Origin: the human T2T-CHM13v2.0 reference genome, Homo sapiens
Length of the DNA stretch: 64,000 nt
Direction: 5' to 3' (one strand)
NCBI RefSeq assembly: GCF_009914755.1
Contig: NC_060931.1
Made by a program: the position numbers and the translations under genes. Shown here piece after piece: positions 22,973 to 24,356 of the stretch. The first letter of the stretch is position 1, and each line of letters starts with the position of its first letter. The notes beneath the pieces are model-generated. The model was not told the DNA's origin and made no database searches. It was given only the letters and a program-made list of their open reading frames with translations.

Positions 22973-23221
22973 CTTCTTATGGTTGTAGATTTCACCATTG
23001 TAACAGAGCCACAAATACGGATATTTCTTCACTCGAATTGGCTGCATTCCAAACAGCGGGTCAACTACCGCCAACCGGTGAAATCCAAAGCAGCAGTTGG
23101 TGTATCCATTGACATTCTCAAAACGGAATGCATCTGGACCTCTGTGTGCAATCTTCATAGCACTCAGACACTGAACAGAAAGGCAATCATCACTGCCAAA
23201 CAGCGCCCAAATGCCACACAT
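22973..23221 (-). CDS. ASNS: ASNS exon 3 coding part (MCGIWALFG...EIYNHKK); the exon begins at 23244
   Basis: gcaccATG start, Cys2 Ntn nucleophile, HRGPD and NGEIYN motifs; ccatag| acceptor at 23245; AAG|gtgagg donor; 249 coding nt. Confidence 0.98.
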
Positions 23222-23842
23222 GGTGCAATGAAGCTATAAGCTTTCTATGGAGAGAAAAGCAGACAAATCAAAAATATTCAATATCCAGTCCAACTCTGCA
23301 TTAAATCTTGATTCCGGAAACGTGCATAAACCACTTCAAAGACTAAAATTTAAACCATCTTTTCTATAGCGATTTCCCATTAGGTTGGCAGGCACATGGG
23401 AGTAGAGAATGATTTAATTTACTTACAGGTATTCGGAAAAGATAGTGACCTCTACATTCAACCGGCTACAGCAGCTTAGCACCTAGCCAAAGCCTGCATC
23501 TCTCCCACCTTAGGATTTAGTGGTTGGCTAGAGCTGACAGCGTCCATGCCACATCTGTCTCTGCATTCTAAGTTTGCTTCCAAGATACAGATACAAATGC
23601 AGGCTGGCTCCAACCTAGCCAGAGATCCTAGCCCCACTCTCACCATCCCAAAATCCCTCAAAGATCCAACAGACTTTCCAGATTACTAGAGTCTCCTCTC
23701 AGGTTCCCTTGACAGTTTAATGCCCTCTTTATCTGAACTAGCTGCAGGTACCATATAATGGGTACAACAGAAAATCATACTGCTGTAAGTGTAAAAGATA
23801 CGCAGCTCTTTCAAGCATTTCACTATATTACATCTAGGTTAC

Positions 23843-23878
23843 CTTCAAGTGATTTATTCAGATGTGATTGAAGAAAAT
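23843..23878 (-). other. ASNS: ASNS exon 2 (36-nt non-coding)
   Basis: Strong polypyrimidine tract + ag (ttttttttccctttag|ATTTTC) and GAAG|gtaacc donor; size agrees with my recollection of the 5'UTR. Confidence 0.8.
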
Positions 23879-24222
23879 CTAAAGGGAAAAAAAAAACAAT
23901 TTAATTTGATATCAGATATCCTGGCTTTATAACAAATAAAACATTTCAAGTTAATAGAAGATACAAAATATTCACTATCAAAATGTCCTCACTGACAAAA
24001 ATGTTCTCAAATATTTCTGTCTCAAAGTTGCATTGTTCAGTAAGGAAGCAAAGTAGGTGAGACATATACACCAACAACATCCCTAATAAAAAACTTAGCT
24101 CATCCCTATAAGCCCGGAAGCAAATAAATCACCCTTACATACGTTAATTACTTTCCAATTTCAAATTCTCAACTGTGAAATAAAGGGCTGTTTTATTTGG
24201 CTGCTGCCAGCTCAAAATGACA

Positions 24223-24356
24223 CATTGCACCATGTGTGGCATTTGGGCCCTGTTTGGCAGTGATGACTGCCTTTCTGTTCAGTGTCTGAGTGCTACGAAG
24301 ATTGTACACAGAGGTCCAGATACATTCCGTTTTGAGAATGTCAATGGATACACCAA
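24223..24356 (+). pseudogene. Inverted duplicate fragment of ASNS exon 3 inside intron 1
   Basis: Reverse complement of 23097-23230 with 5 substitutions in 134 bp and no indels. Confidence 0.95.

What the first reader, a model, noticed from the sequence alone, without database searches (positions are those of the whole stretch)
23097..24356. Inverted 134-bp copy of the ASNS start-codon exon in intron 1: candidate cis-antisense hairpin in the pre-mRNA
Seen: 24223-24356 (+) is the reverse complement of 23097-23230, which covers the last 9 nt of the 5'UTR, the AUG and the first 41 codons. There are 5 substitutions and no indels (96%). The arms are 992 nt apart, and the loop holds exon 2 and the exon 3 acceptor (23245), only 14 nt from the stem. 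On the transcribed (minus) strand, 3 of the 5 differences still pair as G-U wobbles, leaving one G-G and one C-A mismatch. Established: long intramolecular duplexes can cause exon skipping and are ADAR substrates, and A-C mismatches are favoured editing sites. Inference: this non-Alu, gene-specific duplex could mask exon 3, loop out exon 2, or recode codons in the glutaminase domain of a stress-induced gene. The low divergence suggests a primate-era origin. I do not know of a description of it, but cannot check.
Basis: partly seen in the sequence, partly recalled or inferred. Interest (0 to 1): 0.9.

Follow-up and report, generated by a model that had tools for sequence, protein, structure and literature searches.

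The report
Known ASNS exon–intron RNA editing hairpin
A 134-base backwards copy of the start of the ASNS coding sequence sits in the upstream intron and pairs with the exon in the unspliced RNA; this pairing and the weak A-to-I editing it causes were already published in 2022, so the finding is real but not new.

Summary
Window 24223-24356 is the reverse complement of 23097-23230: 134 nt, 5 mismatches, no indels. On the transcript these are 3 G-U wobbles, one G-G and one C-A mismatch. The full stem forms in the predicted fold.

It is already in print. Gabay et al. 2022 (PMC8897444) describe an ASNS exon pairing with an intronic complementary sequence that is conserved in most primates. They report a Homininae-specific intronic G>A that makes the A:C mismatch, strong editing of that intronic A, and exonic editing. 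Their table lists six exonic sites (S10G, Q17R, M22V, K23R, A25A, R27G) with maxima of 1.0-5.3%. All six map inside the exon arm.

New here:
- The intronic arm is a 143-bp insertion (24222-24364) without target-site duplication.
- The insertion is absent from 21 of 21 dispersed genomic paralogues of this ASNS segment.
- Three of the five differences arose in the copy and two, both synonymous, in the exon. None is compensated.

Effects on splicing remain untested. Editing stayed at or below 0.56% in HEK293 cells overexpressing ADAR1 or ADAR2, so a large functional effect is unlikely.

The parts
23097..23230 (-). Exon arm: last 9 nt of the 5'UTR, the AUG and codons 1-41(+2 nt) of ASNS exon 3
   Evidence: annotation table supplied with the finding
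24223..24356 (-). Intronic arm in intron 1, antisense to the exon arm in the pre-mRNA. It acts as the editing complementary sequence (ECS).
   Evidence: described as an intronic ECS in PMC8897444
24222..24364 (.). The whole 143-bp insertion: 1 nt filler (A), 134 exon-derived nt, and an 8-nt A-rich filler (AAACAAGA). There is no target-site duplication. The empty site reads ...GAC|TGT...
   Evidence: 21 of 21 genomic paralogues run from 24221 straight on to 24365
24305..24305 (-). Intronic A opposite exonic C (23148, c.74), forming the A:C mismatch. The state is derived in the copy.
   Evidence: the paper reports a Homininae-specific G>A here and strong editing of this A
23143..23194 (-). Span holding the six published exonic A-to-I sites: c.79 (23143), c.75 (23147), c.68 (23154), c.64 (23158), c.50 (23172), c.28 (23194)
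   Evidence: Supplementary Data 2 of PMC8897444, mapped to the window. All six are A paired to U, and none has a 5' G.
23171..23172 (-). AG of the alternative acceptor used by the annotated exon 22973-23170. It lies inside the stem, and its A (23172) is the published editing site c.50.
   Evidence: …TTCAG|TGTCTG; annotation table
23245..23246 (-). AG of the canonical exon 3 acceptor, 14 nt from the stem on the loop side
   Evidence: …CCATAG|AAAGC; annotation table
23843..23878 (-). Exon 2 (36 nt, 5'UTR), inside the 992-nt loop
   Evidence: annotation table

Best explanation
A 134-nt internal piece of ASNS exon 3 was copied in inverted orientation into intron 1 of the same gene, about 1 kb upstream in the transcript. 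The event was a 143-bp insertion without target-site duplication. It happened in a primate ancestor, after a genomic segment of the ASNS 5' region had been duplicated to pericentromeric and acrocentric sites. In the pre-mRNA the intronic copy is transcribed first. When exon 3 emerges, the two pair into a 134-bp, 96% duplex, and the copy acts as an editing complementary sequence for ADAR. Published data show strong editing of the intronic A at the A:C mismatch and weak A-to-I editing (about 1-5%) at six exonic adenosines around it. Most likely this is a near-neutral by-product of a duplication scar, and the recoding is too weak to matter much. What is shown: the anatomy, the insertion, the direction of the substitutions, the predicted fold, and (in the publication) the editing. 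What is inferred: pairing before intron 1 is spliced out, the mechanism of insertion, and near-neutrality.
For: Anatomy and fold:
- One inverted pair of 134 nt at 96%.
- The full stem is present in the MFE of 23050-24400.
- 129 of 134 exon-arm bases pair with their repeat partner in the MFE of the 3501-nt exon 1 to exon 3 pre-mRNA.
- Duplex energy is -258.8 kcal/mol, against -33 and -46 kcal/mol for the arms folded alone.

Insertion:
- 21 of 21 genomic paralogues (L003-L023; chr1, 2, 3, 4, 8, 9, 13, 14, 15, 20, 21, 22) align up to 24221 and resume at 24365 with no gap on their side.
- The copy is closer to the chr7 exon (129/134) than to any paralogue (at most 122).

Direction of change:
- c.65, c.74 and c.91 changed in the copy.
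- c.18 and c.36 changed in the exon. Both are synonymous.
- The c.74 change agrees with the paper's intronic G>A.

Editing (PMC8897444):
- Main-text passages.
- Supplementary Data 2 lists six ASNS sites with maximal levels 1.0-5.3%.
- Sense-strand G calls are seen in strand-specific data.
- All six sites lie in the arm, are A:U pairs, and none has a 5' G, although 10 of 30 exon-arm As do.

Near-neutrality:
- None of the 5 differences is compensated.
- The copy has 3 changes where 5.46 are expected at the chr7-branch rate, which does not differ from neutral (P(≤3)=0.21).
- Editing is at most 0.56% and classified 'Unknown' for 6 of 6 sites in HEK293 with ADAR1 or ADAR2 overexpressed.
Against: - A 134-bp near-perfect duplex would be expected to be edited heavily, and the observed 1-5% is low. 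Either few transcripts form the duplex, or heavily edited molecules are lost from poly(A)+ reads or from read mapping. In the second case the effect on ASNS output would be underestimated.
- ADAR dependence of these sites was not demonstrated in the HEK293 data.
- All 21 paralogues may descend from one original duplicate. 21 of 21 is therefore perhaps one independent witness of the empty site, and one precise deletion in that ancestor would give the same picture.
- With 3 substitutions the neutrality test has almost no power.
- I saw the legend of Fig. 6a but not the figure, so I do not know which primates carry the copy.
Confidence: 0.8

Rival explanations
1. Splicing regulator. The stem hides or constrains the exon 3 acceptor (14 nt away), loops out exon 2, or controls the choice between the canonical acceptor and the alternative acceptor inside the stem (exon 22973-23170, which gives the isoform starting at Met22).
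For: The geometry is right. The canonical AG is 14 nt from the stem, and the alternative AG (23171-23172) is inside it. The A of that alternative AG is the published editing site c.50, so editing would destroy that acceptor. c.64 (M22V) would destroy the start codon of the short isoform. These points come from sequence and annotation only.
Against: There are no splicing data. Six paper searches found no report linking ASNS splicing to this structure. Editing at c.50 is at most 2.6%. The exon arm has drifted away from pairing through 2 synonymous changes without compensation.
Confidence: 0.1
2. Selected control of expression. Duplexed or hyper-edited ASNS transcripts are retained in the nucleus or degraded, so the hairpin dampens ASNS output in catarrhines. 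The 1-5% seen in mRNA is only the surviving tail.
For: The duplex is very stable (-258.8 kcal/mol) and editing in mature mRNA is unexpectedly low for it. The published pipeline masked loci with several closely spaced mismatches of different types (passage), and aligners generally lose hyper-edited reads (my own knowledge).
Against: There is no direct evidence. No compensatory substitutions are seen. The copy's divergence fits neutrality. ASNS is abundantly expressed, with thousands of reads over these sites in every GTEx tissue listed.
Confidence: 0.07
3. Rival for the origin only. The insert is a retroposed (L1-type) or otherwise RNA-templated fragment of ASNS mRNA captured at a break, rather than a DNA-level template switch to the nearby exon.
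For: The source is purely exonic. The insert ends in an A-rich 8-nt filler, so with the shared AA it reads AAAAACAAGA.
Against: There is no target-site duplication, because the flanks abut as GAC|TGT in the empty sites. No exon-exon junction is included, and the fragment is internal to the exon, 14 nt from its 5' end and 124 nt from its 3' end, not the 3' end of the mRNA. The source lies only 1 kb away in inverted orientation, which is what a replication template switch gives (my own knowledge). The filler has no other exact copy in the window. The data cannot decide between the two.
Confidence: 0.3
4. Assembly artefact or chance match.
For: None.
Against: The match is 134 nt at 96%. The same pairing was found independently on hg38 and in other primates, and RNA editing marks it in vivo.
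Confidence: 0.01

Closest known systems
The ASNS exon/intronic-ECS duplex of Gabay et al. 2022, Nat Commun 13:1184 (PMC8897444), section 'Evolution of editing sites' and Fig. 6a
   Same: It is the same object. An ASNS coding exon pairs with an intronic sequence. The A:C mismatch comes from a G>A change in the intron. The intronic A is strongly edited, with exonic sites nearby, and the structure is present in most primates.
   Different: [quoted passage not shown] The full repeat is 134 nt, with 55-bp and 51-bp stretches between the two true mismatches. The words 'inverted' and (for this case) 'duplication' do not occur in its main text. Not stated there, as far as I read (passages and three supplement parts, not the figures): the origin as an inverted copy of the exon, the 143-bp insertion, the empty site in the paralogues, and the two synonymous changes on the exon side.
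Classical exon-intron ECS substrates of ADAR (GRIA2 Q/R and R/G sites; named from my own knowledge)
   Same: A coding exon pairs with a complementary sequence in an adjacent intron of the same pre-mRNA. Editing must therefore precede splicing, and it recodes amino acids.
   Different: Here the ECS is upstream of the exon and arose recently by copying the exon itself, so the duplex is far longer and more regular. Editing is spread over several sites at low level rather than one site at high level, and the duplex is confined to primates.
Inverted Alu pairs (IRAlus) in introns and 3'UTRs
   Same: They are long intramolecular dsRNA made by two inverted copies of one sequence, edited promiscuously by ADAR, and primate-specific.
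   Different: The arms are not a mobile element. The own-genome search found only the two arms, ASNS paralogues and processed-pseudogene-like copies (26 matches). One arm is coding. The identity (96%) and spacing (992 nt) are tighter than for any of the other 11 inverted pairs in the ASNS gene body.
ECS supplied by an inverted neighbouring paralogue (TOR1B/TOR1A, CLDN9/CLDN6 in PMC8897444)
   Same: Coding sequence is edited because a reverse-oriented copy of the same coding sequence lies in the same transcript.
   Different: In those cases the copy is a whole neighbouring gene reached through an extended 3'UTR. Here it is a 134-nt fragment inside an intron of the same gene.

Membership tests
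ADAR exon-intron ECS recoding substrate | A coding exon and an intronic sequence of the same pre-mRNA form a long double-stranded stem | tested here: met
   134 bp, -258.8 kcal/mol; 129 of 134 partners kept in the 3501-nt context
ADAR exon-intron ECS recoding substrate | A-to-G differences between RNA and DNA at adenosines inside the stem | not testable with these tools
   No RNA-seq is available here. Published: six exonic sites, maxima 1.0-5.3% (PMC8897444 Supplementary Data 2), with sense-strand support. I checked that all six fall in the arm, are A paired to U, and none has a 5' G.
ADAR exon-intron ECS recoding substrate | Editing depends on ADAR1 and/or ADAR2 | not testable with these tools
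   Published HEK293 overexpression data are inconclusive: 6 of 6 ASNS sites are classed 'Unknown', with editing at most 0.56% in WT, ADAR1-OE and ADAR2-OE.
ADAR exon-intron ECS recoding substrate | Editing is lost when the ECS is removed or mutated | not tested
   This needs a minigene or genome edit. The paper offers a natural experiment: species without the A:C mismatch show no editing, or editing at one position only.
L1-mediated retrocopy (processed pseudogene fragment) | Target-site duplication flanking the insert | tested here: not met
   the empty site is GAC|TGT, the filled site is GAC-[143 bp]-TGT, and no duplicated flank is present
L1-mediated retrocopy (processed pseudogene fragment) | 3' poly(A) tail and 3' end of the mRNA, or spliced exon junctions | tested here: not met
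   there is only an 8-nt A-rich filler, and the fragment is internal to exon 3 with no junction. By contrast L024 and L025 match only exon 3 sequence (22971-23235 and 22974-23139), ending within 2 nt of its 3' edge at 22973.
Local templated insertion / replication template switch | The insert copies nearby sequence in inverted orientation, without target-site duplication | tested here: met
   the source is 992 nt away and inverted, with no TSD
Local templated insertion / replication template switch | Microhomology at the junctions | tested here: inconclusive
   the junctions carry fillers of 1 nt and 8 nt rather than clear microhomology. After an estimated tens of millions of years the original junctions may have changed.
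Inverted Alu (IRAlu) dsRNA | Both arms are Alu elements | tested here: not met
   the arm matches only ASNS-derived sequence in the genome (26 matches); one arm is the coding exon

The most novel reading that the evidence does not exclude
The hairpin is more than an editing curiosity and couples ADAR activity to ASNS isoform choice or output in catarrhine primates. The stem encloses the alternative acceptor whose AG is itself edited (c.50), and it encloses the start codon of the short isoform (c.64, M22V, the most edited site). Transcripts that stay duplexed or become hyper-edited are removed, so the 1-5% seen in mRNA understates what happens on nascent RNA. A stress-induced gene would then carry a built-in, primate-specific dsRNA brake.
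Probability: 0.08. Interest if true: 0.6.

Novelty: already known. Interest (0 to 1): 0.3.

Why it matters
This is a clean natural example of how a recoding site is born. A short inverted copy of an exon lands in a neighbouring intron and supplies a ready-made ADAR substrate, and a later single substitution (the A:C mismatch) switches editing on in African apes and humans. That second step is published. It also adds the full 134-bp extent and the finding that two of the five mismatches come from synonymous drift of the exon. For ASNS biology the practical weight is small, because exonic editing is at most about 5%.

Tried and rejected
- Rfam scan of 22000-27000 gave 0 families at gathering score.
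- I looked for a template for the 8-nt filler. The 12-mer across the right junction has no other exact copy in the window (3 matches at up to 1 mismatch, 1.17 expected), so this is uninformative.
- L1-type retroposition was rejected as the simplest origin because there is no TSD.
- Assembly artefact was rejected.
- Selection on the pairing: none of the 5 differences is compensated, and the copy has 3 substitutions against 5.46 expected (P=0.21). This gives no signal, but also almost no power.
- Other descriptions in print: searches found only PMC8897444. The other hits with 'ASNS' and 'ADAR' were mouse ADAR1 Zα papers or unrelated papers, seen as listings only, where I assume ASNS appears as a stress-response gene.
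- Other primates could not be examined directly, because no primate genome other than the window's own assembly is held.
- No structure, complex or protein search was needed.

Full report
**1. The observation**

The repeat finder on 22500-25000 returns a single inverted pair: 23097-23230 against 24223-24356, 134 nt, 96% complementary, 992 nt between the arms. The pairwise alignment shows five substitutions and no indel. Homology stops sharply at both ends.

On the transcribed minus strand the five non-Watson-Crick positions are:
- G-G at c.18
- U-G at c.36
- U-G at c.65
- C-A at c.74
- G-U at c.91

One detail matters: in the C-A pair the A is in the intron arm (window 24305) and the C in the exon (23148).

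The Watson-Crick segments between these positions are 26, 17, 28, 8, 16 and 34 bp long. Counting wobbles as pairs, the two true mismatches delimit stretches of 55 and 51 bp.

In the 21.5 kb of the ASNS gene body this is the tightest inverted repeat. The other 11 pairs are at most 84% complementary and at least 5.9 kb apart. By recall they look Alu-like.

**2. Does it fold?**

- The MFE structure of 23050-24400 (minus strand, 1351 nt) contains the whole stem.
- In the 3501-nt stretch from exon 1 to exon 3, 129 of 134 exon-arm bases still pair with their repeat partner, and 3 pair elsewhere.
- The two-strand duplex energy is -258.8 kcal/mol. The arms folded alone give -33.2 and -45.8 kcal/mol.
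- These are thermodynamic predictions and say nothing about kinetics.
- The intronic arm lies 345 nt upstream of exon 2, and the exon arm follows within about 1.1 kb. My inference is that intron 1 will usually still be present when the exon arm is transcribed.

**3. It is already described**

A full-text search for ASNS with ADAR terms led to Gabay et al., 'Landscape of adenosine-to-inosine RNA recoding across human tissues', Nat Commun 2022 (PMC8897444). I read passages of the main text, the legend of Fig. 6 but not the figure, and parts 1, 152 and 302 of supplementary file 2, plus passages found by search.

The text says:
[quoted passage not shown] - Outside the Homininae there is no editing, or editing at one position only.
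[quoted passage not shown] - Four further editing sites appear near the exonic C.

Supplementary Data 2 lists six ASNS sites on hg38. The column headers were seen. Percentages were recomputed from the read counts.

| Site | Change | Maximal editing level |
|---|---|---|
| c.28 | S10G | 1.7% |
| c.50 | Q17R | 2.6% |
| c.64 | M22V | 5.3% |
| c.68 | K23R | 4.4% |
| c.75 | A25A | 2.0% |
| c.79 | R27G | 1.0% |

- The maxima fall in tissue numbers 10 and 11. By the alphabetical order of the header these should be the two cerebellar GTEx tissues, but I did not see those two column names. Elsewhere the levels are lower, for example 0.7% at c.64 in tissue 1.
- Using window position = 23222 minus the c. 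number, the sites map to 23194, 23172, 23158, 23154, 23147 and 23143, all inside the exon arm.
- Each site is an A paired with a U of the intron arm. None has a 5' G, although 10 of the 30 exon-arm adenosines do. This fits ADAR's known dislike of a 5' G (my own knowledge).
- Four of the sites (c.64 to c.79) lie within 10 nt of the C:A mismatch at c.74.
- Strand-specific data in Supplementary Data 3 show the G calls on the sense strand.
- In HEK293 cells editing at all six sites is at most 0.56% in wild type, ADAR1-overexpressing and ADAR2-overexpressing cells. All six are classed 'Unknown'. So neither enzyme is assigned, and ADAR dose does not seem to be limiting there.

Further searches found no other description of the structure: ASNS with inverted repeat and intron; ASNS with recoding, RNA editing and primate; asparagine synthetase with editing complementary sequence; the six amino-acid changes; and ASNS with dsRNA, hairpin, pre-mRNA and exon 3. 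Subscription journals and databases such as REDIportal are outside what I could search.

**4. Where the intronic arm came from (new here)**

A search of the window's own assembly with 24190-24390 gave 26 matches:
- the query itself;
- the exon arm;
- 21 copies at 88-92% identity on chr1, 2, 3, 4, 8, 9, 13, 14, 15, 20, 21 and 22, many in acrocentric short arms or near centromeres, to judge by their coordinates;
- two weaker matches on chr13 and chr18;
- one 32-nt match to the left flank on chr8.

I fetched about 3.1 kb around each.

The 21 copies are genomic duplicates of the ASNS 5' region, introns included. In every one of the 21 the alignment to the window runs up to 24221 and resumes at 24365 with no gap on the paralogue's side. 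The empty site reads ...CAAAATGAC|TGTTTT....

The window therefore carries a 143-bp insertion (24222-24364), made of one A, the 134 exon-derived bases, and AAACAAGA. There is no target-site duplication. The two weaker matches (L024, L025) align only to exon 3 sequence (22971-23235 and 22974-23139), ending within 2 nt of its 3' edge at 22973. I take them for processed pseudogenes.

A caveat applies. The 21 copies probably descend from one founding duplicate, so they may count as a single witness. One exact deletion in that founder would look the same. An exact loss of just the exon-derived piece is much less likely than its gain, because the piece is by nature a secondary copy.

**5. Direction of the five differences and age**

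I used the paralogues and the two pseudogene-like copies as outgroups.
- At c.65, c.74 and c.91 all 21 paralogues and L024 agree with the exon (L025 has no sequence there), so the copy changed. The c.74 change is C>T on the plus strand, which is G>A on the transcript, the paper's Homininae-specific change.
- At c.18 the copy, 20 of 21 paralogues (one has a gap) and both pseudogene-like copies share C. The exon changed GCC>GCG, which is synonymous.
- At c.36 the copy, 21 of 21 paralogues and L025 share C, while L024 has T. The exon changed GAC>GAT, which is synonymous.

So two of the five imperfections come from silent drift of the exon, and none was compensated in the copy.

A three-way comparison over 1398 aligned flanking sites gives 57 chr7-specific changes (4.08%), 59 specific to the chr8 copy and 60 specific to the rest. 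At that rate a copy as old as the chr7/paralogue node would have 5.46 changes in 134 nt. It has 3 (P(≤3)=0.21; 95% interval 0.46-6.5%; point estimate 0.55 of the node's age). This fits an origin within the primates after the duplication. It shows neither constraint nor recent gene conversion, and the test has very little power.

**6. How the insertion arose**

The source is 992 nt away and inverted, the fragment is internal to one exon, and there is no target-site duplication. These favour a DNA-level template switch or templated break repair. The purely exonic source and the A-rich right-hand filler leave room for an RNA-templated patch. The filler has no other exact copy in the window. I put about 0.3 on the RNA route. 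The sequence alone cannot decide.

**7. What it does**

Shown, by the publication: the duplex forms in at least some transcripts and is deaminated.

Inferred: because exonic editing is at most about 5% and does not rise with ADAR overexpression in HEK293, the effect on the ASNS protein pool is small, and the structure is most likely a tolerated scar.

Two sequence details keep a regulatory reading alive:
- The alternative acceptor of the annotated exon 22973-23170 (…TTCAG|TGTCTG) lies inside the stem, and its A is editing site c.50.
- The most edited site, c.64, is the A of the AUG that starts the short isoform (M1V in NM_001178075).

The low editing of so long a duplex could also mean that heavily edited molecules are lost before they are counted. 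None of this is tested.

**8. Verdict**

The kind of thing is already known.

Noticed in passing
window 21882-24864 and loci L003-L023: A genomic segment of the ASNS 5' region (at least intron 3 to intron 1) is dispersed in 21 copies at about 84-90% identity on chr1, 2, 3, 4, 8, 9, 13, 14, 15, 20, 21 and 22, many in acrocentric short arms or near centromeres. Twelve copies (L008-L011, L013, L014, L016-L020, L022) break off at window 23067-23069, inside exon 3. The others carry an extra interspersed repeat at about 22436-22449. I did not map the outer limits of the duplicated segment.
   Followed up: partly
L024 (chr13:99.27 Mb) and L025 (chr18:11.9 Mb): These two copies match only exon 3 sequence (window 22971-23235 and 22974-23139), ending within 2 nt of its 3' edge at 22973, at 86-87% identity. 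They are probably processed ASNS pseudogenes. I used them as outgroups only.
   Followed up: partly
window 23171-23172 and 23158: Published editing site c.50 is the A of the AG of the alternative acceptor of annotated exon 22973-23170. Site c.64 is the A of the AUG of the short isoform. Editing would abolish either signal.
   Followed up: partly
window 24232-24369 (+): On the plus strand the copy keeps an open frame of 45 codons starting with the copied ATG ([10 protein letters not shown]…KNKMF*). There is no evidence that the plus strand is transcribed here.
   Followed up: no
window arm positions 39-40 (c.30-31; 23191-23192): The exon, the copy and the chr8 paralogue read TG. The other 20 paralogues and both pseudogene-like copies read CA. 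This pattern is expected if an ancestral CpG decayed independently on the two strands, and it warns against using this site for dating.
   Followed up: no
window 22115-22388: An interspersed repeat in intron 3 (Alu-like by recall) forms inverted pairs with copies at 15077-15253, 9030-9195 and 11934-12064 (at most 84% complementary, at least 6.9 kb apart). These are further possible dsRNA in the ASNS pre-mRNA.
   Followed up: no
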